Notes under the pieces: generated by a model
Told to the model about the DNA's origin: nothing
Databases searched by the model: none
Seen by the model: only the letters and a program-made list of their open reading frames with translations
Part shown: piece after piece, positions 20,166 to 60,349 of the stretch
Layout of the letters: each line of letters begins with the position of its first letter
How positions within the stretch are numbered: the first letter of the stretch is position 1
Assembly: GCA_018673485.1 (NCBI GenBank)
Contig: JABHCP010000007.1
Coordinates: forward strand, 9,890 to 73,889
Direction: 5' to 3'
Source: Candidatus Uhrbacteria bacterium
GTDB lineage: Bacteria > Patescibacteriota > Patescibacteriia > UBA9934
Length of the DNA: 64,000 nt
Position numbers and translations under genes: made by a program

Positions 20166-20293
20166 GTAGCTCCCGACTCGCCCGCCCCCTCCCTCGTGAG
20201 GTGTGGCGGGTTTGTGCTTGGGGCAGAATACAGCCGAAGGTCCTGAGCGAGCAAAGCGAGTCGAAGGGAACCCAGCTCATTAAGCTAAACTTC

Positions 20294-20323
20294 CCAGGTT
20301 GAACCTCTGAGGTTCAACCTTGG
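20294..20323. repeat. GGTTGAACC inverted repeat
   Basis: CCAGGTTGAACC-TCTGA-GGTTCAACCTTGG; a perfect 30-bp relative at 48259..48288; both lie at borders of high-GC islands. Confidence 0.6.
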
Positions 20324-25986: not shown

Positions 25987-26027
25987 GCCCCTCCCCCTTT
26001 TTCCTCAAGGGGGAGCTGGAGGGGGTT
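25987..26027. repeat. GC-rich palindromic repeat (CTCCCCCTT-N-AAGGGGGAG-CTRGAGGGGGTT family)
   Basis: related copies at 43092..43152, 44206..44239, 46746..46777, 60269..60349. Confidence 0.6.
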
Positions 26028-26093: not shown

Positions 26094-26615
26094 TTACTTA
26101 ATTGATCTTATTTTATCAGATTGTTCAGTTCTGCGATAATAATCATCAATCGCGTCACGCAATGCCTGATCGGCTAGTACTGAACAATGAATTTTGCGCG
26201 GAGGCAAACCACCAAGACGTTTTACAATATCCTGAGGTTTGAGATTGCGAGCCTCATCAATGGTTAATCCGTTATTTTCAGTGGCAATTACTGATGTTAT
26301 CGAAGTTGCAGCAATAGCCGACGCACATCCAAACGTCTTCCACCAAAACCTTTTAATCTTTTCATCTTTTGGATCGATCCATAACCAAATTTTCAGCTCA
26401 TCGCCACAAGCCGGTGACCCAACACGGCCCACAGCATTATATTCGCTTTCCTTAAGCTCCCCTTCCAAAAAATTCTGTGGTTTAAAAAAGTGCTCTTTAA
26501 CAATATCTGAATAAAACCATGAGTGCGACTTATCCGCGCTCACAATATCACCCTTGGTGCCCTTAACTTCTTTAGCCTTGTAGTCCGTCATGTACTTTTT
26601 GTTTAACTTGATCAA
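26094..26615 (-). CDS. IscU/NifU-like Fe-S cluster scaffold with N-terminal extension
   Basis: GSPACGD, GCASAIA and KIHCSVLA motifs. Confidence 0.8.
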   Translation of the reverse strand: MIKLNKKYMTDYKAKEVKGTKGDIVSADKSHSWFYSDIVKEHFFKPQNFLEGELKESEYNAVGRVGSPACGDELKIWLWIDPKDEKIKRFWWKTFGCASAIAATSITSVIATENNGLTIDEARNLKPQDIVKRLGGLPPRKIHCSVLADQALRDAIDDYYRRTEQSDKIRSIK

Positions 26616-27210
26616 AAATCAACAATACTTTTTCACATTTCCTTGGATCGACAACCAACTTATCATACTCATTCAACCAACGTTCTTTGATTGTGGGATC
26701 GATTTCTTGATACCAGTCCAGAAGTGGTTGATATGCCTCTAGTCGAGCTGGTTTATTCGTATAAACGTCTTTTTGCAAATCATACCATTTAAAAATCTTG
26801 TTCTTAGACTCTTGGTTCGGGGAATCGTGAACTACTATCTGCGACATCAAGTCTGCACTTACACCCATCACGCGCCATGATTCAATATCTTCATATAATT
26901 TCGCAGCCGTAACCTTATACCAAGCATCAGAAGACGCAGATTCTATTAAATCAATATTGAAAACTTTCTTTAAGAGCTCTCCGCCTAGCTTGTCATAGAT
27001 CACATGAATCTTCCAACCTTTTTCAAAATCAGTGCCTGTGAGCAAATCTTTGGGTTCGATTGAATAATCGTGCGTACACGCTCTATCAATACCGGTTGTG
27101 TACCGAGAATCAGGATACATCACTCCCGCAAGATACTCACCCTGATTCACAATTCCAAGCAACCCCTCAAACTCGAGCGCAAATCTTACATGTGTTGCCT
27201 GCATTGCCAT
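26572..27210 (-). CDS. hypothetical protein (212 aa) within the isc cluster
   Basis: ORF with balanced composition overlapping iscU by 44 nt; no recognisable motif. Confidence 0.45.
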   Translation of the reverse strand: MAMQATHVRFALEFEGLLGIVNQGEYLAGVMYPDSRYTTGIDRACTHDYSIEPKDLLTGTDFEKGWKIHVIYDKLGGELLKKVFNIDLIESASSDAWYKVTAAKLYEDIESWRVMGVSADLMSQIVVHDSPNQESKNKIFKWYDLQKDVYTNKPARLEAYQPLLDWYQEIDPTIKERWLNEYDKLVVDPRKCEKVLLIFDQVKQKVHDGLQG

Positions 27211-27227
27211 ACCTGTTTAATAAATCA

Positions 27228-27267
27228 CGGTTTCACTAATTGAACGATCGTTCAATTAGTGAAACCG
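27228..27267. repeat. 40-bp perfect palindrome centred on CGATCG
   Basis: CGGTTTCACTAATTGAACGATCGTTCAATTAGTGAAACCG, 3' of iscS. Confidence 0.8.
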
Positions 27268-27285
27268 TCCGATCTTCGTAATATG

Positions 27286-28491
27286 TTAATTCGTATACTC
27301 GATTGATGTTTTCACTGGACTCATCTTGCGCAAGCGCTCGACGATCTCTGGAAGAACTTCAAGTACGCGTTTCAGATCTTTCTTTGTTGTTGACCGGCCT
27401 AGGCTGAAGCGTAAACTTCCGTGTGCTACTGCGAAGGGAACTCCAAGGGCTAAAATCACATGGCTTGGATCCAACTTTTCGCTTGTGCACGCTGACCCTG
27501 AAGATGCGTAAATACCTCGCGCATCAAGATAGAGCAAAAGCGCCTCGCCCTCTACATCTAAAAATGAAATGTTGATGTTGTTAGGAAGTCTGTCTATTGC
27601 GTGACCGTTAAGTCGAACTTTTGGAACTCGCTCCTTAACCTCATCAATAAAATAATCTCGAAGTTTTGTGAGACGCTTAACTTCTCGCTCTCGATCACTG
27701 CGAGCCAGCTCAACCGCCTTTGCAAATCCAACTATCCCTGCAACATTCTCGGTTCCTGGTCGAAGCCTACGCTCCTGAGAACCACCAAACATAATTGGCT
27801 CTATCTTGACTCCACGTTTGATGAACAATGCACCCGCACCCTTCGGTCCGTAAATCTTTGAGGAGTTGACTGTCATCAAATCAACGTGCAGAGCCTCAAC
27901 TCGCATGTCCAAATACCCAAATGCCTGACAGGCGTCGGTGTGGAAAAGCGGATATGATGTTTTATTTTGTTTTTTGTATTTATTTATTGCTCGTCCAATA
28001 TCTGCCAGCGGATGAATCGTACCGATCTCATTATTCGCATACATGATTGAAACTAAAATCGTATCATCACGTAATGCTTTTTCAACGTCGCTAATCGAAA
28101 CACGTCCGTACTCATCGACATTCAACAATGTCACCTCAAACCCCTCCTTCTCCTCCAAATGTCGAAGCGCCTCAAGAACGGCTGGGTGCTCAGTCACGCA
28201 CGAGACGATGTGCCTACCGCTATCCTTATGAGCTCGAGCAGCTCCTAAAATTGCCATGTTGTCAGACTCAGTTCCACTGCCTGTAAAAATAATCTCGTCA
28301 GCTCGTGCGTCCATCGCGTCAGCCACCATCTTTCGAGCGCTCTCGATTAAATCTCGAGCCTCCTTACCCTTCATGTGCATGCTCGACGGATTGCCTAGCC
28401 CTAGATTCTCTATCTTACGCATCAAATCAACCACCTCTTTGCGAGTTGGCGTTACAGCAGCGTGATCAAGATAAATTTGTGACTTTTTCAT
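27286..28491 (-). CDS. iscS: cysteine desulfurase
   Basis: class V aminotransferase; PLP-lysine region SSKIYGPKG; active-site SGSACTS. Confidence 0.9.
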   Translation of the reverse strand: MKKSQIYLDHAAVTPTRKEVVDLMRKIENLGLGNPSSMHMKGKEARDLIESARKMVADAMDARADEIIFTGSGTESDNMAILGAARAHKDSGRHIVSCVTEHPAVLEALRHLEEKEGFEVTLLNVDEYGRVSISDVEKALRDDTILVSIMYANNEIGTIHPLADIGRAINKYKKQNKTSYPLFHTDACQAFGYLDMRVEALHVDLMTVNSSKIYGPKGAGALFIKRGVKIEPIMFGGSQERRLRPGTENVAGIVGFAKAVELARSDREREVKRLTKLRDYFIDEVKERVPKVRLNGHAIDRLPNNINISFLDVEGEALLLYLDARGIYASSGSACTSEKLDPSHVILALGVPFAVAHGSLRFSLGRSTTKKDLKRVLEVLPEIVERLRKMSPVKTSIEYTN

Positions 28492-28498
28492 AAATTAC

Positions 28499-28538
28499 AT
28501 GTTTCACATATTGGACGATCGTCAACATTGTGAAACAT
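28499..28538. repeat. 40-bp near-palindrome centred on CGATCG (GTTTCAC arms)
   Basis: ATGTTTCACATATTGGACGATCGTCAACATTGTGAAACAT immediately 5' of iscS; shares GTTTCAC...GTGAAAC arms with 27228..27267. Confidence 0.7.
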
Positions 28539-28718
28539 TTCAAATAAGCTAACTGTCTTCTTTAATGGCCTAGGATATGTGTTTTTATGCCTTCTGTCAA
28601 CAATTCTACCACGGAGCGTGTTGGTTGACAGTTTGTCACTTTTTAGCTAATCTAATCAGCCGTTCCTACGTATTTCGCCCCATTAACCACCGCTGCGCTA
28701 TATGCGCTGAGGATACCC

Positions 28719-29417
28719 ATGTCCGAACCCGCCACCACACGTCAAGAACTTATAATCAAGATCCTGCGACTCGAAGCTGACAATGCTCGCCTGCAGGCTG
28801 AACTCGAGACTGCTAAGATCCGCATCCAGGAGCTCGAAGCTGAGCATGCACCGGAGATGTGCGCCGAGTACGACATCTGTACCCTCTCCAAGCCCATCGA
28901 GGAGTTAGTGCTTTCGAAACGCGTGAAAAAACTTCTCCGGTTTGGCTTCTATGACATGCCTGATGGTTCCATGGTATACATCTGGCAACTCATTGAAAAA
29001 ACTGAGGCCGAGGTACTCCATATCCGCGGCTTGGGGCGCAAGAGCTTTGGTCAAATCAAAGTGGAGCTAGCCGAACTCGGACTCAGCCTTGGCATGGGAT
29101 GCCCGGACGAGATCAAGGCCCAGCTCCCCCACCCCGACTTCAGTGCAAAAATGATCGAAAATCTCTCCCGTACGTGGGATGATATCGAGCTCTCGATTCG
29201 CGCAGCGAACTGCTTCAATCTCCACAGCATCTGGTACGTCTGGGAGTTCGTCGAGTACACCGACAAGAGGGCGCTTGCAGAGATCAAGAACTTCGGACGC
29301 GGGACGCTCAACGAGCTCAAGGAAATCCTCGAAGAGCTCGGGCTAGAGCTCAACACGAAAATACCACTCGAGGTCAGAACCCGGCTACCACAGGACAATC
29401 CGTACCTCAGGCACTAG
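28719..29417 (+). CDS. stand-alone protein with N-terminal coiled coil and two RNA polymerase alpha-CTD-like domains
   Basis: IELSIRAANCF and ELGLSLGMG blocks match the rpoA C-terminal domain (LELTVRSANCL...SRGLSLGM) twice; about 58% GC. Confidence 0.6.
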   Translation: MSEPATTRQELIIKILRLEADNARLQAELETAKIRIQELEAEHAPEMCAEYDICTLSKPIEELVLSKRVKKLLRFGFYDMPDGSMVYIWQLIEKTEAEVLHIRGLGRKSFGQIKVELAELGLSLGMGCPDEIKAQLPHPDFSAKMIENLSRTWDDIELSIRAANCFNLHSIWYVWEFVEYTDKRALAEIKNFGRGTLNELKEILEELGLELNTKIPLEVRTRLPQDNPYLRH

Positions 29418-32018: not shown

Positions 32019-32144
32019 CCACCGACGCTCCTCTGGAGCTTTGGCGGGCACGTCACGTCGTTCGCGAACGACGTGACAGGCGCGACTCCGTCACTCACCT
32101 TCGATGGTGGTCGCAAGTAGTTCTTTTCTATAAATTTATGATAT

Positions 32145-32221
32145 GGCCACGTGGCGAAGCTGGTTAACGCGACGGTCTGCAAAACCGTTACGCGTCGGTT
32201 CGAGTCCGACCGTGGCCTCCA
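32145..32221 (+). tRNA. tRNA-Cys (GCA)
   Basis: cloverleaf: acceptor GGCCACG/CGTGGCC, anticodon stem ACGGT/ACCGT, loop CTGCAAA, T-arm GTCGG-TTCGAGT-CCGAC, encoded CCA. Confidence 0.85.
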
Positions 32222-32407
32222 TCCGTAACAATTTGATACATCGAATTGTTACGGATGTCCTGAGCGAACGAAGAGAGTCGAAGGGCTCACGTTCGATAAG
32301 GGCATCAATAAAATTATCACTAATTACGAATCATTTGGGTTGAACCGTAAATGAGTGAAAAACAAAAACACCCCGCAAGGGGTGGTTTTTGTTTTTATGA
32401 TCGAAAA

Positions 32408-35622: not shown

Positions 35623-38565
35623 ATGAGTCGACCGCAATCACCTCGCCGAGGCGCACATTCGTGGGCAAGTTCCAGAAAAAAGGGTTGGAAAAAGAAGCTT
35701 CAAACATACTTTTCATATTTAAAAAAAGCTGACAGAGCAACTCTTGTGAAAAACGTAGTTTTACTTCTCATTGCCGGCGCCTTGCTTGGCAGCATAATGC
35801 TTCTTGGTGCTTTCGCGTGGATCTCTAAAGACCTCCCTGACCCAAACTCACTTACAATTCGTGAAGTGCCACAATCCACCAAGATATACGACAACACTGG
35901 AGAAAATCTTTTATATGAAATCGCAGGGGATGAAAAGCGTACTTTAGTTACCCTTGATCAGATCCCGGAATACATGGTTTGGGCAACGATCACAGCTGAG
36001 GATAGAAGTTTTTACGAGCACAGTGGAATTGACTACAAAGGAATCATGCGAGCCATCTTTGTTGATGTTATAACGCTAAGCAAATCTCAAGGTGCATCAA
36101 CAATCACGCAACAATTAGTTAAAAATGCGATTCTTTCTAATGAAAAAACATGGACGCGAAAGGTAAAAGAAATACTATTATCGCTAGCGCTTGAACGCAG
36201 GTATACCAAGGATGAAATCATGCAGCTTTACTTAAATGAGATCCCATATGGATCTCGCAACTATGGAATCCAAGCTGCATCAAGCGCATATTACGACTCA
36301 GCTGTTGAAGACTTAAGTTTAGCTCAGGCCGCAACACTCGGAGCACTTCCACAAGCAACAACTTACTACCTTAACAATCCTGACGATCTTGAAGCGCGTC
36401 GTAACTGGATCTTGGGTGACATGGCAGAGCTCGGCTACATAACTCAGGAAGAGGCCGATACTGCAATGTTAGAGGACACTAGCATTACCACTTATTTTTC
36501 AGACATCGAAGCCCCTCACTTCGTACTATGGGTAAAGGAACAGCTAGAAGAAGAGTACGGACAGAAAGAAGTAGAACAAGGTGGAATGACCGTGATCACT
36601 TCAATCGATTTTGACATGCAAAACGCAGCGCAAGATGCAGTAGTTAATAACCGCGATGCGCGTTCTGAATCTTATGGATTTAATAACTCTGGACTTGTAG
36701 CAATCGACCCGGATAACGGTCACATACTGGCAATGGTTGGCTCTGTTGATTATTTTGATGACGAAATTGACGGTCAAGTTAATGTGACTCAACAACCACT
36801 GCAACCTGGATCGTCTTTTAAACCAATCGTTTACACTGCTGGCTTTGAAGAAGGTTACACACCAAACACAATTTTGTGGGATGTAAAAACTGAGTTTGGA
36901 ACTACCACTGGGTCTTACTCACCAAACAACTATGACCTGGAAGAGCACGGTCCGCTCTCAATTAGAAGTGCGCTTCAGGGATCTTTAAATATCACGGCCG
37001 TAAAAATGCTTTATTTGGTTGGTGTGACTACCGCTGCTGATTTTGCAGAGCGACTTGGATACACAACACTAACTGATCCAGAACAATACGGACTTTCAAT
37101 GGTGCTTGGTGGCGCTGAAGTAAAGCTCATCGAACACGTTTCTGCCTACTCGGTCTTCGCAAACGAAGGAACTTATTACGAACCTGTTTCAATATTGAAA
37201 GTTGAAGATTCAGACGGCGAAATACTTCAAGAGTGGGAAGAAAGCGACGGGGAAGACGCACTCGACACAAACCTAGCGCGTATGATCACAAATGTGTTGT
37301 CCGACGACTCAGCACGCGCACCATTCTTTGGCGCTGGCGGATACCTAACGCTCGGATCTCGTCCGGCTGCTGCAAAAACTGGTACAACAAACGACTACAA
37401 AGACGCATGGACCATTGGATACACTCCACAACTTGTAACCGGTGTTTGGACAGGGAACACAGACGGAACAGCAATGAATTATGGCTCCGGCGGAAGCTCA
37501 GTCGCTGCTCCAATCTGGAATGAGTTTATGTATGCAGCCCTTGCTGACCAACCAATCGAATACTTCAATGCACCAGAAATTCCGACAACTGGAATAGCAG
37601 TGCTTGATGGGAACATGCCAAGCCAAGAAGTAACAATCGATACTGCCTCAGGAAAGCTTGCAACTGATAAAACACCAGACAGATACAAAGAAACAAAGGT
37701 TTGTGGTGAGTACCACAATATTCTCTACTATATAAACCCAAACGATCCGACCGGTGGTACTGTAAGCGAGCCAGTTGACGGCGCTTACGAACGTTGGGAA
37801 TCATCAGTTCAAACATATATCGCAAACTACAATGAGAGCTTAGAAGAAGATCAAGCTCCACTTGAGGAATGTGAAATTCCAACAGAAGAAGATGACGTTC
37901 ACACTGATCGAAACGAACCAAGTGTGACAATTAGAACCCCTGATAACAACGACTCGGTCGGACGCGAGTTTTCGGTTGAGGTAAAGGCAACTGCACGCCG
38001 CGGGGTTGATCGAATCGAATATCAAATTGATGGGATTATAGTAAAACAAACTAGCAACACATCTGATATTGATCTTGAGCTACCTAGCTGGGTTGATGCA
38101 GGAACACATACTTTGACCGTAGTTGCCTATGACGACGTCGACAACCAAGGAAGTGACGATATTAAAATCAATGTAACCGAAGACGCTGATACAGCAAACG
38201 TAACAATTACAAATCCATTTAATAATCAAGAAATTGGGGTAAGTGATGAGCCTTACGTAATGGTAGTAGAAATGAATGAATTAAATATTCTCTCGATGAC
38301 CCTGTACGCACAAAATCTCTGGGACAGCTCAACGAGCTTGATCTCACACATCGAAGCACCATCTGCTGTAAATGCAGTTAGTTGGACGCTGCCAGGTGAA
38401 GGTGATTACTTGCTCTACGGATTCGTAACCGACGACGCAGGAAACGACATCGACATCGAACCAGTCCAAGTATCAATCGTCGACACCGGCACCTCAAGCG
38501 CCGACAACCCATTTGAGTACTTGTCAGAATCAACAGAAGCGATCGAGGAAGAGATAGTCGAGTAA
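35623..38565 (+). CDS. class A penicillin-binding protein (PBP1A)
   Basis: glycosyltransferase motifs ITAEDRSFYEHSGID and STITQQLVKN; transpeptidase SSFKP/SxN/KTG; C-terminal Ig-like extension. Confidence 0.9.
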   Translation: MSRPQSPRRGAHSWASSRKKGWKKKLQTYFSYLKKADRATLVKNVVLLLIAGALLGSIMLLGAFAWISKDLPDPNSLTIREVPQSTKIYDNTGENLLYEIAGDEKRTLVTLDQIPEYMVWATITAEDRSFYEHSGIDYKGIMRAIFVDVITLSKSQGASTITQQLVKNAILSNEKTWTRKVKEILLSLALERRYTKDEIMQLYLNEIPYGSRNYGIQAASSAYYDSAVEDLSLAQAATLGALPQATTYYLNNPDDLEARRNWILGDMAELGYITQEEADTAMLEDTSITTYFSDIEAPHFVLWVKEQLEEEYGQKEVEQGGMTVITSIDFDMQNAAQDAVVNNRDARSESYGFNNSGLVAIDPDNGHILAMVGSVDYFDDEIDGQVNVTQQPLQPGSSFKPIVYTAGFEEGYTPNTILWDVKTEFGTTTGSYSPNNYDLEEHGPLSIRSALQGSLNITAVKMLYLVGVTTAADFAERLGYTTLTDPEQYGLSMVLGGAEVKLIEHVSAYSVFANEGTYYEPVSILKVEDSDGEILQEWEESDGEDALDTNLARMITNVLSDDSARAPFFGAGGYLTLGSRPAAAKTGTTNDYKDAWTIGYTPQLVTGVWTGNTDGTAMNYGSGGSSVAAPIWNEFMYAALADQPIEYFNAPEIPTTGIAVLDGNMPSQEVTIDTASGKLATDKTPDRYKETKVCGEYHNILYYINPNDPTGGTVSEPVDGAYERWESSVQTYIANYNESLEEDQAPLEECEIPTEEDDVHTDRNEPSVTIRTPDNNDSVGREFSVEVKATARRGVDRIEYQIDGIIVKQTSNTSDIDLELPSWVDAGTHTLTVVAYDDVDNQGSDDIKINVTEDADTANVTITNPFNNQEIGVSDEPYVMVVEMNELNILSMTLYAQNLWDSSTSLISHIEAPSAVNAVSWTLPGEGDYLLYGFVTDDAGNDIDIEPVQVSIVDTGTSSADNPFEYLSESTEAIEEEIVE

Positions 38566-44205: not shown

Positions 44206-44239
44206 CCTCCCCCTTCCCAAGGGGGAGCTAGAGGGGGTT
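44206..44239. repeat. GC-rich palindromic repeat CCTCCCCCTTCCCAAGGGGGAGCTAGAGGGGGTT
   Basis: member of the family listed at 25987..26027. Confidence 0.6.
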
Positions 44240-44380
44240 GCCATTGAGTAAATAAAATCAGGAGACATTCCTCCTGTTTCCGATTGCATTGTATCAAGTT
44301 ATTGCTAGTTTGATCAAAAAGGTTTCACTAAGGTCCCGATCGGCCCTTTAGTGAAACCTTCTTGACGTCGACGGCTTGGC

Positions 44381-45656: not shown

Positions 45657-45885
45657 ACTTAACAGCTTTTTTCTTCCCCCTCTCTCAACCCCCATCAAAC
45701 CTGAAGGACTCCCATGTCCAACTCACGGTTTGTGGGGGGTTCTTCTTTTATAGAAAAAATAGACAACTTACCGCTTAGATGGCCCTGTGTTTTTTTTCTA
45801 TCCATTCGATGTTCGATCGGACATTTTATGAATTTATCAAAATTGCTTTTGAGGCTGATTTAAAGACTGCGTTTAGAGATATCAA

Positions 45886-45921
45886 TTTTCATAATACGTT
45901 CGATCGAACGTATTATGAAAA
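45886..45921. repeat. 36-bp perfect palindrome centred on CGATCG
   Basis: TTTTCATAATACGTTCGATCGAACGTATTATGAAAA; a degenerate relative at 45806..45826. Confidence 0.8.
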
Positions 45922-45982
45922 TAAAGCATCAACGCCCCACTCGTTGTACGAGTTGGGGCGTAGTTGATTGCGCACGAGGGCG

Positions 45983-46666: not shown

Positions 46667-46787
46667 GATTGCTCCCGATCGAGGTCGGATCCAGTGTTCG
46701 CGCTTACATTAGCTTAGAAGTATTCTGCGGTCAAGATTCGACGGCAACCCCCTGGCGTCCCCCTTGGGAAGGGGGACATTTAATTAA

Positions 46788-48258: not shown

Positions 48259-48288
48259 CAAGGTTGAACCTTTAAAGGTTCAACCTTG
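48259..48288. repeat. 30-bp perfect palindrome CAAGGTTGAACCTTTAAAGGTTCAACCTTG
   Basis: relative of 20294..20323. Confidence 0.7.
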
Positions 48289-48385: not shown

Positions 48386-48922
48386 ATGAGTGTTCCAATG
48401 ATCGGTGATAGCGGTGTGCTCCTGCAGGTTTCAACGATGAGGGCCAATGCTGTCATGCGACTTCTGAGTATGGAGTGCTTCCGTGTAGTGCCCTTCCTGA
48501 TCGATGCTCGTGAGGAGTTCCGTCCCAGCGACTGGTTTAGGACCATCGGTGAGTTCCATGAGTGGGTCATGCAGAGTTCAGAGACGCAGTTTGCTGACAA
48601 GCTCCGTGCGGCATGGGGACAGATCGAAGCGGATCTATATGCCAGAAATATCCCAGCTAACCTTGAAGTTGTGGCCAACCGCATTCGAGCGTTCAAGCTG
48701 CCTAAGGGTACGGAGCGGATTGAATGGTCCCGGGATGGCAAGAACATTGTCATTGAAATCAACGACTGGCATGACGAATTCGATAGCTTGGAACGCTTCC
48801 TGGAACTTCTTGCAAAAGATGCTTGGCGATCGAACGATGACGTACATGCGCATAGCGTCATCCGGCTCGCTCAAGAACTCCTCGCGCTCGACAACTTCCC
48901 GATCCGTAGACCTACCGACTAG
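48386..48922 (+). CDS. hypothetical protein (178 aa) in a high-GC islet
   Basis: the plus-strand ORF has a normal composition; the overlapping minus ORF is a Ser/Arg-rich artefact. Confidence 0.5.
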   Translation: MSVPMIGDSGVLLQVSTMRANAVMRLLSMECFRVVPFLIDAREEFRPSDWFRTIGEFHEWVMQSSETQFADKLRAAWGQIEADLYARNIPANLEVVANRIRAFKLPKGTERIEWSRDGKNIVIEINDWHDEFDSLERFLELLAKDAWRSNDDVHAHSVIRLAQELLALDNFPIRRPTD

Positions 48923-48927
48923 GTAGG

Positions 48928-48947
48928 CTGAGTTCGATCGAACTCAG
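48928..48947. repeat. 20-bp perfect palindrome CTGAGTTCGATCGAACTCAG
   Basis: CGATCG-centred family; immediately after the 48922 stop. Confidence 0.7.
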
Positions 48948-48949
48948 CG

Positions 48950-48986
48950 TCCCCGCGCCCACTCGGCGCGGGGTTCTTGTTTTTTA
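48950..48986 (+). terminator. intrinsic terminator
   Basis: CCCCGCGCC-CACT-GGCGCGGGG followed by TTCTTGTTTTTT. Confidence 0.65.
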
Positions 48987-52672: not shown

Positions 52673-52710
52673 ATTTTCATGATAGGTTCGATCGAACCTA
52701 TCATGAAAAT
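52673..52710. repeat. 38-bp perfect palindrome centred on CGATCG
   Basis: ATTTTCATGATAGGTTCGATCGAACCTATCATGAAAAT abutting the stop codon of 52710..53252. Confidence 0.8.
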
Positions 52711-53252
52711 TATATTTCTGAAGCATGGAATATTTTCACCCAATCCGAGTTTTTAAATTTTATGCTAAAAAGCCTAGAAAGGTCGTCGCTTACATTCTTT
52801 TTGGTAGTCCAAACACTTCGGTGCATTTGCTTGAATCCGATTCGTTTTAATAGGTGTCTAATTTGTCTTCGAATTAGCTTTTGACTTTCAGGTATATCAA
52901 AAGATACAACACACAATTGGTTTGAGGGCAGATAGTTGGCGTTCATACTTTTTAATCTAAGGTATTCTTCAATCCCTTTTTCTGTAAGCGATATATAGTA
53001 TTGATCAGCGATTTTGTTTTCTAAAATAAATTTCTTTTGACGCAATTTTTTCAGTGTTTGTTTTCGGCTCCATTTTTCTTTGTTGTGCAAATACTTTCTT
53101 GCTCCGTTTATCCCAAACCTAACCACAAGACCTGGCCTAGCTAGGCCGAAGTGGAGATCGGATATTGAATTACCAATTTCAACAAGAAGATTTGATGTTC
53201 TAGAGTTAGTTATTAGTGGATATTTGTTTTCACGATGTGTTCGATCGGACAT
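52710..53252 (-). CDS. hypothetical protein with winged-HTH-like N-terminal region and Cas2/PaaX-C-like C-terminal motif
   Basis: YISLTEKGIEEYL wing; VVSFDIPESQKLIRRQIRHLLKRIGFKQMHRSVWT resembles the Cas2/PaaX_C core; gene is bracketed by CGATCG palindromes. Confidence 0.45.
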   Translation of the reverse strand: MSDRTHRENKYPLITNSRTSNLLVEIGNSISDLHFGLARPGLVVRFGINGARKYLHNKEKWSRKQTLKKLRQKKFILENKIADQYYISLTEKGIEEYLRLKSMNANYLPSNQLCVVSFDIPESQKLIRRQIRHLLKRIGFKQMHRSVWTTKKNVSDDLSRLFSIKFKNSDWVKIFHASEI

Positions 53253-53256
53253 ATCT
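53235..53256. repeat. imperfect CGATCG-centred palindrome overlapping the start codon
   Basis: GATGTGTTCGATCGGACATATC. Confidence 0.5.
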
Positions 53257-53276
53257 TGATTATTATTTATTGCGAG

Positions 53277-54794
53277 CTAGAACCTTGTACATCGATATCT
53301 TAGCGCCTCGGCGAGGTGGTTGATTTCTATATTTTCAGATGCGCATAGGTCTGCGATTGTTCTGGCAACTTTTAGTGTGCGTGTATAAGCGCGAGCTGAT
53401 AGTTGATACTGATCGATCGCTTTTTTTAAAATCACAATACTAGAATCATCAAGTTTGCAGAATTTCCCTAAAAGCCTGGTCGTTAGTTGATCATTAGTTG
53501 CGATAGGTAACTTTTTGTATCTAGACAGTTGTATTTGTCGGGCCTTGGTTATTCTTTTTTTGATGTTTTTTGAGGATTCGCTGACTTGGTTTGATGTTAG
53601 TTTGTCGAATTCAACTCTAGGCACATTAATTGTAATATCAATCCGGTCCAATATCGGACCTGATAGTTTTCTTTTGTATTTTTGGATTTGTCCTGGGGTG
53701 CATTCGCATGGTCTCTTTGGGTCGTGCAGAAAACCACACGAGCAAGGGTTCATCGCCGCAACTAGCATGAAGTTTGAGGGAAAGGTGATTGTTCCAGATG
53801 CGCGTGCGATAGTGACACACTTGTCTTCGAGTGGTTGCCGTAGATTCTCGATTGTCTTGCGAGTAAATTCAGCAAACTCATCCATAAATAGTATTCCATT
53901 GTGCGCGAGTGAGACTTCACCCGGCCTGGGCCACGTTCCCCCACCGATTAGTGCAGTGCTCGAACTTGTGTGATGTGGATGTCTAAAAGGCCTCTCGGTT
54001 AGTAGATAGGTTTCATCAAGAAGTCCAGAGATAGAATATATCTTTGTAGTTTCAAGTGATTCATCAAATTGCAAAGATGGTAGTATCGATGGAATTGCTC
54101 TGGCCAGCATGGTTTTTCCAGATCCTGGTGGCCCAACCATTAGCATATTGTGATTTCCAGCAGCGGCGATTTCCAGGGCGCGTTTAACATGATCCTGCCC
54201 CCGAACGTCTGAAAAGTCGATTAGGTTTTTAGGAGTTGGTTTTTTGGAGGGCTTGTGAGCGTGACAGTCGAGCTCTGAGTTCTCTCGTAGCTTGCTGACA
54301 AGCTCCTGGAGCGTGTTTGCGGTGCATGTACTAACATCCTTCACGATTGATGCTTCATGGGCGTTGTCGGGTGCTACTACCACGCGATCAAGTTTTCGAT
54401 CTTTGCACATTGTGGCAGCCAAGAGCGCACCTTGCACTGGTCTGATCTCGCCGTCGAGCGATAGCTCTCCTAAGAAGACTGATGTTTTTGTTATGTTCGT
54501 CTGTGATATCGCGCCAGAGGCGATTAATATGCTCAAAGCAATGGGTAGGTCATACATTGGTCCTTGTTTTTTGAGGTTTGCCGGTGCGAGGTTGACTGTG
54601 ACTCGCGTTCTAGGAAAGGTTAGCCCACTATTTTTAATAGCAGCGCGAATACGTTCGCGCGATTCGGAAATTGCCGCATCTGGCAATCCTACTATGGTAA
54701 ACCTTGGTAAGCCTGAAGAAATGTCAGCCTCCACTCGCACTGGGACGCTTTTGAGCCCAACGTGGGCTGAAGAATAAATAAAAGAAGATCCCAT
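53277..54794 (-). CDS. YifB/ComM-family Mg-chelatase-like AAA+ ATPase
   Basis: N-terminal Lon-protease-like ChlI region, Walker A GPPGSGKT; 505 aa. Confidence 0.85.
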   Translation of the reverse strand: MGSSFIYSSAHVGLKSVPVRVEADISSGLPRFTIVGLPDAAISESRERIRAAIKNSGLTFPRTRVTVNLAPANLKKQGPMYDLPIALSILIASGAISQTNITKTSVFLGELSLDGEIRPVQGALLAATMCKDRKLDRVVVAPDNAHEASIVKDVSTCTANTLQELVSKLRENSELDCHAHKPSKKPTPKNLIDFSDVRGQDHVKRALEIAAAGNHNMLMVGPPGSGKTMLARAIPSILPSLQFDESLETTKIYSISGLLDETYLLTERPFRHPHHTSSSTALIGGGTWPRPGEVSLAHNGILFMDEFAEFTRKTIENLRQPLEDKCVTIARASGTITFPSNFMLVAAMNPCSCGFLHDPKRPCECTPGQIQKYKRKLSGPILDRIDITINVPRVEFDKLTSNQVSESSKNIKKRITKARQIQLSRYKKLPIATNDQLTTRLLGKFCKLDDSSIVILKKAIDQYQLSARAYTRTLKVARTIADLCASENIEINHLAEALRYRCTRF

Positions 54795-57443: not shown

Positions 57444-57502
57444 TCTATCGCAGTTAAGAGATCTTAAAAAGCGAAAGAGCTTCTATATCGTATTTCGTTT
57501 GT

Positions 57503-57516
57503 TGTCCGATCGGACA
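57503..57516. repeat. palindrome TGTCCGATCGGACA
   Basis: CGATCG-centred family. Confidence 0.6.
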
Positions 57517-57580
57517 TCAAGTGAACTCACACATAGTCGCTTTTGAGTTGATTCTAAAGACCATATTTATGAACGCCAAT

Positions 57581-57614
57581 GTTCGCGTTAGGTTCGATCG
57601 AACCTAACGCGAAC
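57581..57614. repeat. 34-bp perfect palindrome GTTCGCGTTAGGTTCGATCGAACCTAACGCGAAC
   Basis: CGATCG-centred family; shares the TAGGTTCGATCGAACCTA core with 52673..52710. Confidence 0.8.
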
Positions 57615-57639
57615 AGAAGATGCTCGCATTGGAATTTAA

Positions 57640-59985: not shown

Positions 59986-60268
59986 ATGTATTGTTGGGGA
60001 TTTCCCAGTCGGCGCATCGCGGTGTCGAAATTTCCGCTCTTTGCTCGCCGTACATAACAGTACGTCTCGCAGAGTGCTCAATTTCTCCTAGCGCTGCATC
60101 CAGCTGGAAAAATCCCTGAGTTATCGCTCGGTTTGAAGCTGAAGGTTTCAAAGAAATGAATCTTTGACGACCTTGTGGTCTCAAACCGAAGCGTTAAGTA
60201 AGTTATCGAACGAGTAGAGAAGATCGAGTGCTCGGTCTGCTCTACCCGTTTGAAAACGGGTCTTAGTG

Positions 60269-60349
60269 ACCTCCCCCTGCCCCTCCTTCGTAAGGAGGGG
60301 AGATTCGATCGAGATCCTCCCCCTTACGAAGGGGGAGATAGAGGGGGTC
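60269..60349. repeat. tandem GC-rich palindromic repeats
   Basis: CCTCCCCCTGCCCCTCCTTCGTAAGGAGGGG...CCTCCCCCTTACGAAGGGGGAGATAGAGGGGGTC in the pnp leader. Confidence 0.6.

What the first reader, a model, noticed from the sequence alone, without database searches (positions are those of the whole stretch)
27228..28538. iscS gene bracketed by two related CGATCG palindromes sharing GTTTCAC arms
The cysteine desulfurase gene (27286-28491, minus strand) is flanked immediately 3' by a 40-bp palindrome at 27228-27267 and immediately 5' by a 40-bp near-palindrome at 28499-28538. Both share GTTTCAC...CGATCG...GTGAAAC. They look like paired boundary elements: attL/attR-like sites, or operator and terminator hairpins around a single gene.
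Basis: seen in the sequence. Interest (0 to 1): 0.6.

Follow-up and report, generated by a model that had tools for sequence, protein, structure and literature searches.

The report
Palindromic sites of a mini-PaaX protein
The two hairpin-like palindromes around the cysteine desulfurase gene are real, but they are two copies of a repeat family found between genes in tiny-genome (Patescibacteria) bacteria, and this family always accompanies one small DNA-binding protein that most likely binds it.

Summary
A (27227-27268) is a perfect 42-bp palindrome and B (28499-28538) matches 16/20. Both read GTTTCAC-N8-CGATCG-N8-GTGAAAC, which shuffles never produce.

The pair is not specific to iscS. The window holds at least ten CGATCG-centred palindromes of about 36-40 bp, all between genes. 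A metagenome scan shows a wide family in low-GC contigs whose inner arms co-vary.

In six related isc loci, gene order is constant. The palindromes sit on both sides of iscS, on one side, or elsewhere in the operon. This excludes att sites or a relocated cassette. Still, 8 of the 10 palindromes in those loci lie at the isc operon.

The main new result concerns a 180-aa protein encoded at 52710-53252. It has a winged-helix region plus a Cas2-like domain, that is, PaaX without its C-terminal domain. Its gene is bracketed by such palindromes in the window, in seven other palindrome-ascertained gene versions, and in 6 of 7 homologues chosen by protein alone. The arms are specific to each genome.

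Best reading (about 0.5): these are operators of this mini-PaaX, built like the E. coli PaaX site TGATTC-N27-GAATCA. Rivals are a REP/RAYT-like mobile repeat system and RNA hairpins.

The parts
27227..27268 (.). Palindrome A. Perfect 42 bp: ACGG-TTTCAC-TAATTGAA-CGATCG-TTCAATTA-GTGAAA-CCGT. It lies between the iscS stop (27286) and the start of the 212-aa gene (27210).
   Evidence: (I8). As RNA it folds at -30.7 kcal/mol, z = -9.1. The simple scan flags it as terminator-like.
28499..28538 (.). Palindrome B, 16/20. It has the same outer GTTTCAC/GTGAAAC and the same CGATCG centre. It lies between the predicted iscS promoter and the iscS ATG (28491).
   Evidence: (I19); RNA fold -16 kcal/mol, z = -3.4
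27286..28491 (-). Cysteine desulfurase gene (IscS/NifS-like), 401 aa. This is the gene bracketed by A and B.
   Evidence: Aminotran_5, 2.1e-70; names given by sources
28572..28600 (-). Promoter-like site TTGACA-17-TATCCT upstream of B. It is conserved in relatives. Where no palindrome is present, it sits 10-13 nt from the iscS ATG.
   Evidence: 10/12 matches; aligned upstream regions of L007, L008, L030, L032, L034
44320..44359 (.). Palindrome C (AGGTTTCACTAAGGTCC-CGATCG-GCCCTTTAGTGAAACCT), 14/17. It lies between the divergent pyruvate kinase and HD-domain genes. It has the same asymmetric core GTCCCGATCGGCCC as the palindrome upstream of iscS in L032.
   Evidence: (I6)
45800..45833 (.). Degenerate family member D (13/20). 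It is the left unit of a doublet with E, centres 87 bp apart.
45885..45922 (.). Palindrome E, perfect (ATTTTCATAATACGTT-CGATCG-AACGTATTATGAAAAT). It lies between convergent genes, next to a canonical terminator hairpin.
   Evidence: (I2)
48922..48953 (.). Palindrome F (GCTGAGTT-CGATCG-AACTCAGC core), 14/17. It lies between the H+-PPase terminators and the next gene.
   Evidence: (I11)
52673..52710 (.). Palindrome G, perfect (ATTTTCATGATAGGTT-CGATCG-AACCTATCATGAAAAT). It abuts the stop codon of the mini-PaaX gene, between convergent genes.
   Evidence: (I3)
52710..53252 (-). Mini-PaaX gene, 180 aa: winged-helix-like N-terminal part plus Cas2-like C-terminal domain. It is the proposed cognate binding protein of the palindromes.
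   Evidence: Pfam PaaX_M 2.2e-10. Weak TIGR01573 cas2 hit. Alignments A2/A3 show invariant D119, P121, R128, S146. AF2 model pLDDT 79. Foldseek hits Cas2 5zyf and PaaX 8a39. 936 cluster representatives in the family.
53228..53261 (.). Palindrome H (12/17). It overlaps the start codon of the mini-PaaX gene. The centre CGATCG encodes residues 3-4 (ATG-TCC-GAT-CGA). The centre and one outer hexamer (GTGAAA) are kept; the other outer hexamer (AATCAA, 3/6) and the inner arms have decayed.
57493..57526 (.). Degenerate member I (14/20). It is the left unit of a doublet with J, centres 88 bp apart. The spacer shares GCTTTTGAG...TGATT.TAAAGAC with the D-E doublet.
   Evidence: (I1)
57580..57615 (.). 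Palindrome J, perfect (TGTTCGCGTTAGGTT-CGATCG-AACCTAACGCGAACA). It lies after the PNPase terminator and upstream of the 399-aa gene.
   Evidence: (I5)

Best explanation
A and B are two copies of a palindrome family specific to one Patescibacteria lineage. The consensus here is TTTCAY-N8-CGATCG-N8-RTGAAA, about 36-42 bp. These palindromes are the cognate DNA sites of a small PaaX-type protein (winged helix plus Cas2-like dimerisation domain) encoded at 52710-53252.

Proposed mechanism: a dimer of this mini-PaaX contacts the two outer hexamers, which lie 22 bp apart, and also the invariant centre. E. coli PaaX binds TGATTC-N27-GAATCA in the same way. B lies between the conserved iscS promoter and the ATG, so it would act as a repressor or roadblock operator for iscS. 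A lies 17 nt before the next gene (the 212-aa gene followed by iscU). It would act as that gene's operator and may also help end the iscS transcript.

Shown: the family exists; the spacing is fixed; the arms co-vary; the palindromes bracket the protein's own gene; the arms change along with the protein across genomes; the palindromes are enriched at isc operons. Inferred: physical binding, repression, and that the perfect symmetry of the inner arms comes from DNA-level homogenisation (template switching at quasipalindromes) rather than from selection on RNA.
For: (1) Family and architecture. Ten CGATCG-centred palindromes occur in the window with identical 8+6+8 spacing.

(2) Metagenome scan. 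The scan fixed only the outer hexamers and the centre. The N8 arms then show bimodal complementarity: 24 hits at 8/8, where 129 x 4^-8 = 0.002 would be expected, over a chance peak at 2-3/8.

(3) Link to the protein, ascertained through palindromes. Ten of the palindrome-ascertained loci carry a homologue of the 180-aa gene, representing seven distinct gene versions plus one copy of the window's own. Each has one palindrome at or over the start (centre at +5, or -21 to -73) and one 18-32 nt after the stop.

(4) Link to the protein, ascertained through the protein. Six of 7 homologues with DNA, at 30-54% identity, are bracketed: L155, L156, L157, L161, L158, L160. These palindromes are nearly the only long palindromes in 20-kb flanks.

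(5) Co-evolution. The arms are specific to each genome (GCTTCATGAATTGAA, CCGAGATAACTAGA, TTTCAATAATGATG, CCCGAAAATGAGA). In distant lineages the centre also changes: CGGCCG in L158, GTGATCAC in L160.

(6) Signs of sequence-specific duplex recognition. Copies that overlap the coding start keep the centre and usually both outer hexamers (the window's own copy H keeps only one), while N8 symmetry falls to 4-5/8. In L160 the two flanking sites are direct homologues whose N8 is not palindromic.

(7) Protein class. Pfam PaaX_M 2.2e-10. Foldseek matches Cas2 for the C-terminal domain and E. coli PaaX 8a39 over 183 columns, probability 0.91. The published PaaX operator is TGATTC-N27-GAATCA, bound by a winged-helix dimer (PMC9493321).

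(8) isc as a repeated target. In six loci chosen only by iscS, 8 of 10 CGATCG palindromes lie in or at the isc operon, which is about 21% of the sequence. The binomial probability is about 1e-4.
Against: Ten of 37 classifiable copies lie between convergent genes, where no promoter is expected. These include G, right after the mini-PaaX stop codon.

A dimeric factor that reads only the outer hexamers and the centre does not explain the exact complementarity of the variable inner arms.

Genes downstream of palindromes have mixed functions: ribosomal protein S12, MreC, OMP decarboxylase, an antitoxin, and unknowns.

Presence at a given gene junction varies among relatives. Relatives without palindromes have 1-5 nt gene gaps where the window has 24-276 nt. 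This looks like insertion.

Neighbouring copies are often nearly identical (L065, L157, L069), and doublets 69-100 bp apart recur. Both features are typical of mobile repeats.

The fold-search E-values are weak (0.03), and the model's N-terminal part has low confidence. No binding has been measured.
Confidence: 0.5

Rival explanations
1. A REP/RAYT-like system. The palindromes are non-autonomous repeats that spread within the genome as DNA hairpins or cruciforms. The single-copy mini-PaaX gene plays the role that RAYT plays for REP/REPINs: it is flanked by its own repeat type and co-evolves with it. Its Cas2-like domain, with an invariant Asp, would act as a nuclease or integrase-type module at the CGATCG centre. 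The two copies around iscS would then be insertions with at most secondary effects.
For: A short gene of about 540 bp is flanked on both sides by its cognate palindromes whatever the neighbours' orientation. Published RAYTs are about 500 bp, single copy, flanked by REPINs and type-specific (PMC3337134). Doublets with centres 69-100 bp apart occur (D-E, I-J, L065, L064/L085, L106, L052). Nearby copies are nearly identical. The same asymmetric core GTCCCGATCGGCCC appears at non-orthologous loci in different genomes: window C and L032, and L062. Presence at orthologous junctions is variable, and gene gaps are expanded compared with compact relatives. Copies cluster within about 8 kb of the gene. 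There is no orientation preference. The inner arms are perfectly symmetric and show no RNA wobble bias. The Cas2 motif FDIPE...R...SVW is invariant.
Against: The protein has no HUH/Y1 transposase features. The GTAG/CGTC tags of REP superfamilies are absent. No target-site duplications or empty-site pairs at strain level were found. In several genomes the only copies within 20 kb are those at the gene itself. The significant enrichment at isc operons is easier to explain by function. The non-palindromic L160 version cannot form a hairpin.
Confidence: 0.25
2. The elements work as RNA. They form long stem-loops with a GAUC tetraloop at the ends of transcripts and serve as terminators, 3' stabilisers or RNase III processing sites. 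A would end and protect the iscS mRNA. B would structure its 5' leader.
For: Predicted hairpins are very stable (-16 to -31 kcal/mol, z from -3.4 to -9.1). A is flagged as terminator-like. Many copies start 0-25 nt after a stop codon. Flanks are A-rich on the 5' side and, by symmetry, T-rich on the 3' side.
Against: On the transcribed strand, G.U and A.C mismatches are equal, 13 to 13. Six copies lie between divergent genes. Canonical GC-rich terminators with T-runs sit separately beside E, F, G and J. The 3' arm ends in A-runs, not U-runs. A generic hairpin does not need the strict conservation of TTTCAY and CGATCG. This reading also does not explain the obligatory link to the mini-PaaX gene.
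Confidence: 0.12
3. The elements are attL/attR-type recombination sites or cassette boundaries (integron attC-like) that mark iscS as a mobile or relocated gene.
For: The only support is the bracket geometry and the similarity of the two palindromes.
Against: The isc gene order is identical in six relatives whether or not palindromes are present. Single-sided and absent states occur. Housekeeping genes of many kinds carry the same elements. The outer motifs do not match attC R''/R' (RYYYAAC...GTTRRRY) and are in the opposite order. The pattern has no hits in viral contigs.
Confidence: 0.02

Closest known systems
PaaX repressor and its operator (E. coli/Pseudomonas phenylacetate regulon)
   Same: The protein has a winged-helix part followed by a Cas2-like central domain (Pfam PaaX_M; Foldseek 8a39, 3kfw, 3l09). 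The site is made of two inverted hexamers held far apart by a fixed spacer: TGATTC-N27-GAATCA against TTTCAY-N22-RTGAAA.
   Different: The PaaX C-terminal (ligand) domain is absent and there are no paa genes. There is an extra invariant centre, CGATCG. The whole spacer is usually palindromic. There are many sites per genome, including between convergent genes. The regulator's gene is bracketed on both sides.
REP/REPIN elements with their RAYT transposases
   Same: Extragenic palindromes of 20-40 bp. Doublets tens of bp apart. A/T-rich flanks. A short single-copy gene flanked by its own repeat type. Repeat sequence specific to the genome and co-evolving with the protein (PMC3337134, PMC3116915, PMC3733652).
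   Different: The protein is not an HUH/Y1 transposase. There is no GTAG/CGTC tag. Each unit is a full loop-less palindrome with an invariant centre. Copy numbers appear low in several genomes.
HIP1 (GCGATCGC) of cyanobacteria
   Same: The core contains CGATCG and is palindromic (PMC5861425).
   Different: HIP1 is an 8-mer that is hyper-abundant, including inside genes. Here GCGATCGC occurs 0 times and CGATCG occurs at its Markov expectation (35 against 31.2). The signal here is the 36-40 bp context.
parS centromere sites (TGTTTCAC|GTGAAACA)
   Same: The outer arms of B (ATGTTTCAC...GTGAAACAT) and of many metagenomic copies are identical to the two parS half-sites. This resemblance is recalled from memory and was used only as a lead.
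   Different: The halves are separated by 22 bp. No contiguous parS is found with up to 3 mismatches. Other subfamilies have TTTTCAT, GTTCGC and other arms.
Integron attC sites / att sites
   Same: Imperfect palindromes flanking single genes.
   Different: No R''/R' core motifs, no cassette array, constant synteny of the bracketed gene, and no integrase link.

Membership tests
PaaX-type operator | Two inverted hexamers separated by a long, fixed spacer (E. coli TGATTC-N27-GAATCA; PMC9493321) | tested here: met
   TTTCAY-N8-CGATCG-N8-RTGAAA with invariant 22-bp separation in window copies A, B, C, E, G, H and in L008 and L032. The same holds in the 24 scan hits with fully complementary N8 arms, where the spacing was fixed by the search pattern and the arm symmetry marks them as true members.
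PaaX-type operator | A cognate PaaX-family protein (winged helix plus central dimerisation domain plus C-terminal domain) is encoded in the genome | tested here: inconclusive
   PaaX_M 2.2e-10. Foldseek PaaX 8a39 probability 0.91 but E = 0.037. No hit to the PaaX N-terminal or PaaX_C models. The protein is only 180 aa, so the C-terminal domain is absent.
PaaX-type operator | Sites overlap the promoters of the regulated genes and of the regulator | tested here: inconclusive
   Sites lie at or over the start of the regulator gene in all bracketed cases. B lies downstream of the predicted iscS promoter. However, 10 of 37 classifiable copies lie between convergent genes.
PaaX-type operator | Physical binding of the protein to the site | not testable with these tools
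   Requires EMSA or footprinting.
REP/REPIN-RAYT | Short extragenic imperfect palindromes present in many copies | tested here: met
   At least 10 copies in 64 kb, and the six that clear the palindrome-context test all lie between genes. The copy number per genome is unknown.
REP/REPIN-RAYT | Associated protein is an HUH/Y1 (IS200-like) transposase | tested here: not met
   The flanked gene hits PaaX_M and Cas2 only.
REP/REPIN-RAYT | GTAG or CGTC tag at one end of the palindrome (PMC3733652) | tested here: not met
   The half-site profile shows TTTCAY and CGA but no GTAG/CGTC tag.
REP/REPIN-RAYT | Single-copy gene flanked by its own repeat type, with the type specific to the genome | tested here: met
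   Only one tblastn hit in the window. Whole-genome copy number was not tested.
Integron attC / att sites | R''/R' core motifs, cassette arrays, mobility of the bracketed gene | tested here: not met
   The motifs are absent from the sequence. iscS synteny is constant in six relatives.
HIP1 | GCGATCGC strongly over-represented genome-wide, including in coding DNA | tested here: not met
   GCGATCGC 0 copies. CGATCG 35 observed against 31.2 expected.
Intrinsic terminator | GC-rich stem-loop directly followed by a U-run, downstream of a gene | tested here: inconclusive
   A passes a lenient scan with tail GATTTATTAA. The family's 3' arm ends in A-runs. Six copies lie between divergent genes. Canonical terminators stand beside E, F, G and J.
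parS | Contiguous 16-bp palindrome TGTTNCACGTGAAACA | tested here: not met
   0 matches with up to 3 mismatches.

The most novel reading that the evidence does not exclude
A previously undescribed repeat-protein partnership in Patescibacteria, analogous to REP/RAYT but built on a different protein. A winged-helix-Cas2-like protein (family of at least 936 cluster representatives) recognises genome-specific, CGATCG-centred palindromes. Through its Cas2-like domain it nicks or copies them, so that they spread and stay perfectly symmetric. This would seed binding sites at gene boundaries such as the isc operon. It would be a Cas2 relative working on palindromic DNA outside any CRISPR system.
Probability: 0.2. 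Interest if true: 0.85.

Novelty: new variant of a known kind. Interest (0 to 1): 0.55.

Why it matters
Gene regulation and genome dynamics in Patescibacteria (CPR) are almost unknown, because these organisms are uncultured.

If the reading holds, it provides three things. First, a defined DNA motif. Second, a defined candidate binding protein, from a large family currently annotated as 'hypothetical', 'Cas2' or 'PaaX'. Third, conserved targets: the protein's own gene and the Fe-S cluster (isc) operon.

All of this can be tested in vitro with a 180-aa protein and 40-bp oligonucleotides.

The work also warns annotators that many 'orphan Cas2' calls in CPR genomes are PaaX-like DNA-binding proteins. 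And it offers a possible second example, after REP/RAYT, of a vertically inherited gene co-evolving with a family of palindromic repeats.

Tried and rejected
Rfam. The gathering-threshold search found only tRNA-Cys. The permissive search of 44-61 kb gave only chance-level sRNA/miRNA hits on the palindromes.

Spacer motif of the D-E and I-J doublets. My fixed-gap pattern found nothing, because the two copies differ by indels.

Strain-level comparison. Six contigs carrying the identical IscS were identical around A and B, so no empty site was available.

Word-indexed homologue search with the 180-aa protein alone returned only the query itself. The exhaustive HMMER search and an alignment query were needed.

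PDB sequence search gave no significant hit.

HIP1-type over-representation of CGATCG: rejected.

parS: rejected.

Phage origin: 0 hits in viral contigs.

Target-site duplications: none.

RNA wobble bias: none, 13 G.U against 13 A.C.

Functional coherence of genes downstream of palindromes: not seen. A second batch failed on a bad coordinate.

The identical pair in L135 lies in a direct repeat of more than 110 bp on a 1.2-kb contig. It was discounted as a probable assembly artefact.

One look-up (P0280) returned genes but no DNA.
Full report
OBSERVATION. A is a perfect palindrome that extends to 42 bp, at 27227-27268 (I8). B, at 28499-28538, matches 16 of 20 arm positions. Both read GTTTCAC-N8-CGATCG-N8-GTGAAAC. 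The ORF between them (27286-28491, minus strand) is a class-V aminotransferase of 401 aa (Pfam 2.1e-70). Sources name its homologues cysteine desulfurase/NifS/IscS. GTTTCAC-N(5-25)-GTGAAAC occurs three times in the window and never in 100 shuffles. Loop-less palindromes with at least 14/17 arm matches number ten in the window and zero in each of ten Markov simulations.

THE PAIR BELONGS TO A FAMILY. The third GTTTCAC copy (C, about 44320-44359) lies between the divergent pyruvate kinase and HD-domain genes. Scoring every CGATCG for palindromic context gives further members. E (45885-45922), G (52673-52710) and J (57580-57615) are perfect. F (48922-48953) is 14/17. D, H and I are degenerate. 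The six that clear the palindrome-context test (A, C, E, F, G, J) all lie between genes; B sits between the iscS promoter and its ATG, and H overlaps the first codons of the mini-PaaX ORF. All share the layout: outer hexamer (TTTCAY or a variant), 8 nt, CGATCG, 8 nt, outer hexamer. The 8-nt inner arms differ between copies, yet within each copy they are complementary.

CGATCG itself is not over-represented (35 observed against 31.2 expected by Markov), and GCGATCGC is absent. So this is not a HIP1-type phenomenon. D-E and I-J are doublets with centres 87-88 bp apart and partly similar spacers.

ORGANISM. The nearest IscS proteins and the genes on related contigs point to Patescibacteria, Candidatus Uhrbacteria-like. 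The related contigs carry T4SS-pilin gene arrays and belong to small genomes.

THE FAMILY BEYOND THE WINDOW. I scanned metagenome contigs with TTTCAY-N8-CGATCG-N8-RTGAAA. This pattern says nothing about the N8 arms. N8 complementarity is bimodal. There is a chance peak at 2-3 of 8. There is a second peak with 24 hits at 8/8, 3 at 7/8 and 16 at 6/8. The chance expectation for 8/8 is about 0.002 hits. The true members come from low-GC contigs, and some come from the same samples as the window. Viral contigs gave no hit.

I examined six relatives, with IscS 73-83% identical to the window's. Gene order is constant: VIT1, AhpC/thioredoxin, usually an alpha-CTD gene, iscS, a 208-212-aa gene, iscU, ferredoxin. 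The palindromes vary from genome to genome:
- The window has one on each side of iscS.
- L034 also has one on each side, but that pair shares different arms (ACATACACTTTT).
- L030 has one downstream only.
- L032 has one upstream only. Its asymmetric core GTCCCGATCGGCCC is the same as in window copy C, which sits at an unrelated locus.
- L008 has none next to iscS, but it has a GTTTCAC...CGATCG copy between iscU and the ferredoxin gene.
- L007 has one about 480 bp upstream.

Where no downstream palindrome exists, iscS and the next gene abut (TAGTATGG, TAATATGG). All six share a promoter-like TTGACA-17-TATyyT. Without a palindrome, it lies 10-13 nt from the ATG, which suggests a leaderless or nearly leaderless mRNA. 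With a palindrome, 60-110 bp lie between the promoter and the ATG.

However, 8 of the 10 CGATCG palindromes in about 101 kb of these iscS-ascertained loci lie in or at the isc operon, which is about 21% of the sequence. The binomial probability is about 1e-4. The isc operon is therefore a recurrent target, even though the exact junction changes.

THE ASSOCIATED PROTEIN. G abuts the stop codon of a 180-aa ORF (52710-53252, minus strand), and H overlaps its start codon. The ORF hits Pfam PaaX_M, the central Cas2-like domain of PaaX (2.2e-10). It hits TIGR01573 cas2 weakly.

A tblastn search of all fetched loci found homologues in ten of the palindrome-ascertained metagenome loci, plus one locus that is a copy of the window's own gene. 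In all seven distinct gene versions examined, the gene has one CGATCG palindrome at its start and another 18-32 nt after its stop. The start-side palindrome is centred either at +5, so that ATG-nnC-GAT-CGn encodes M-[NS]-D-R, or 21 to 73 nt upstream of the called start.

An exhaustive HMMER search found 936 cluster representatives (E no greater than 1e-3), nearly all 140-230 aa among the best 150. Sources name them hypothetical, Cas2 or PaaX, from Uhrbacteria, Berkelbacteria and Paceibacterota. Alignments show a winged-helix-like segment (LkRLeerkLI...LTekG) and the Cas2 motif CxVxFDIPE..R..R..LR..L...GF...Q.SVW. D119, P121, R128 and S146 are invariant.

The AlphaFold model (pLDDT 79) matches Cas2 structures for the C-terminal domain (5zyf, probability 1.0). 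It matches E. coli PaaX 8a39 over its whole length (probability 0.91), and also 3kfw and 3l09. The E-values are weak, about 0.03.

PROTEIN-FIRST TEST. I looked up seven diverse homologues for which DNA was available.
- L155 (54% identity), L156 (43%), L157 (30%) and L161 are bracketed by CGATCG-centred palindromes with genome-specific arms. L156 and L157 each have a third identical or similar copy within 1.5-3.3 kb.
- L158 (Paceibacterota) is bracketed by 34-bp palindromes centred on CGGCCG/CGGTCG.
- L160 (Berkelbacteria) is bracketed by two directly homologous sites, ATATCACT-N8-G[TC]GATCAC-N8-AGTGATAT, whose N8 parts are not palindromic.
- L159 is syntenic with window region 49-61 kb but encodes a 146-aa version of the protein. 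It has no bracket, and its genes are 1-5 nt apart where the window has 24-276 nt containing H, I, J and K.

These palindromes are almost the only long palindromes in each 20-kb locus.

WHAT THE SITES DO. The published E. coli PaaX site is TGATTC-N27-GAATCA, bound by a winged-helix dimer (PMC9493321). Widely spaced inverted hexamers is exactly the layout found here.

Two observations suggest sequence-specific recognition of duplex DNA through the outer hexamers and the centre. First, copies that overlap a coding start keep the centre and usually both outer hexamers (the window's own copy H keeps only one), while inner-arm symmetry decays to 4-5/8. Second, the L160 type has no inner symmetry at all.

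Selection at the RNA level is not supported. In 20 elements lying just 3' of a stop codon, G.U and A.C mismatches on the transcribed strand are equal, 13 to 13. Canonical terminators stand separately beside E, F, G and J. The elements also occur between divergent genes.

I therefore favour operators of an autoregulated mini-PaaX. B would be a roadblock operator between the iscS promoter and the ATG. A would be the operator of the next gene and possibly a terminator-like hairpin as well. I suggest that the perfect inner symmetry comes from template-switch 'quasipalindrome' correction during replication, a documented mutational process (PMC7202029). This last point is inference.

WHAT DOES NOT FIT, AND THE MAIN RIVAL. 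Among classifiable copies, 21 lie between tandem genes, 10 between convergent genes and 6 between divergent genes. This is roughly what any intergenic element would show, and convergent sites need no operator. Genes next to palindromes have mixed functions. Neighbouring copies are often nearly identical. Doublets recur. Presence varies at orthologous junctions. The same asymmetric core appears at unrelated loci in different genomes.

Consider also the gene itself: a short, single-copy gene that is always flanked by its own genome-specific repeat type. This is the signature described for REP/REPIN elements and their RAYT genes (PMC3337134). Here, though, the protein is not an HUH transposase, there is no GTAG/CGTC tag, and there are no target-site duplications.

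I give this REP/RAYT-like reading about 0.25. It is not exclusive of DNA binding by the protein, which both readings assume.

NOVELTY. I found no paper linking PaaX with Cas2, or describing such palindromes in Patescibacteria. The elements work like PaaX operators and look like REPs, but they fail a defining test of each family. They are best filed as a new variant of a known kind.

VERDICT. The iscS-specific boundary interpretation is wrong in its att form and only partly right in its operator/terminator form. The interesting result lies outside the reported coordinates: a widespread partnership between a mini-PaaX (Cas2-like) protein and a family of palindromes.

Noticed in passing
window 25993-26013, 44209-44225, 46759-46775, 60319-60335 (and the larger 60268-60349); also L007 upstream of iscS and L030 near 18096: A second family of intergenic hairpins built from C-runs and G-runs (CCCCCTT-N-AAGGGGG): 4 copies against 0 expected. 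In the window one copy occupies the iscU-ferredoxin junction, where relative L008 carries a CGATCG palindrome instead. The copy at 60306 has CGATCG in its loop.
   Followed up: partly
window 20293-20323 and 48259-48288: Two copies of a compound palindrome, AGGTTGAACCT-N3/4-AGGTTCAACCT. Each half is itself palindromic. The AGGTT/AACCT arms also flank CGATCG in copies G and J.
   Followed up: partly
window 32045-32084 and 32220-32257, around tRNA-Cys 32145-32221: The tRNA-Cys gene is also bracketed by two long palindromes (15/17 each). They are unrelated in sequence to the CGATCG family: one is centred on TCGCGA, the other overlaps the tRNA 3' end.
   Followed up: no
window 28719-29417 (+), divergent from iscS: A 232-aa protein made of two copies of the RNA polymerase alpha C-terminal domain and nothing else. 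In relative L032 the corresponding gene is 425 aa and has a faint sigma-70 region 4 hit.
   Followed up: no
window 26572-27210 (-): A conserved 208-212-aa gene with no Pfam or NCBIfam hit lies between iscS and iscU in most relatives (absent in L008). It may be an unrecognised Fe-S assembly component.
   Followed up: no
window 28560-28610 and the aligned regions of L007, L008, L030, L032, L034: The iscS promoter-like TTGACA-17-TATyyT is conserved. Where no palindrome is present it lies only 10-13 nt from the ATG with no Shine-Dalgarno sequence, which suggests leaderless translation in this lineage. In L008 and L032 an inverted repeat TGTCAA..ATGATAGAAT..TTGACA surrounds it.
   Followed up: partly
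window 53238-53252; L049, L054, L125, L155 gene starts: The N-terminus M-[NS]-D-R of the mini-PaaX proteins is encoded by the palindrome centre (ATG-nnC-GAT-CGn). These residues are probably conserved because of the DNA site rather than for protein function.
   Followed up: partly
window 53277-54794 (ComM-like Mg-chelatase); L155, L125, L054 and the P0280 contig (ComEC plus metallo-beta-lactamase domain, then ndk): The mini-PaaX gene sits next to competence genes in several genomes: comM here and in L159, comEC elsewhere. In L156 it sits inside a uvrB-uvrA-X-uvrC cluster with palindromes at each junction. This hints at a link to DNA uptake or repair.
   Followed up: no
window about 36000-38000: Cumulative GC skew reaches its minimum here and the skew changes sign. 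The strand bias of genes does not switch, so the meaning is unclear.
   Followed up: no
L135 (1207-bp metagenome contig), 517 and 1057: Two identical palindromes lie inside a direct repeat of more than 110 bp, 540 bp apart, on a very short contig. This is probably an assembly artefact, and the locus was not used as evidence.
   Followed up: partly
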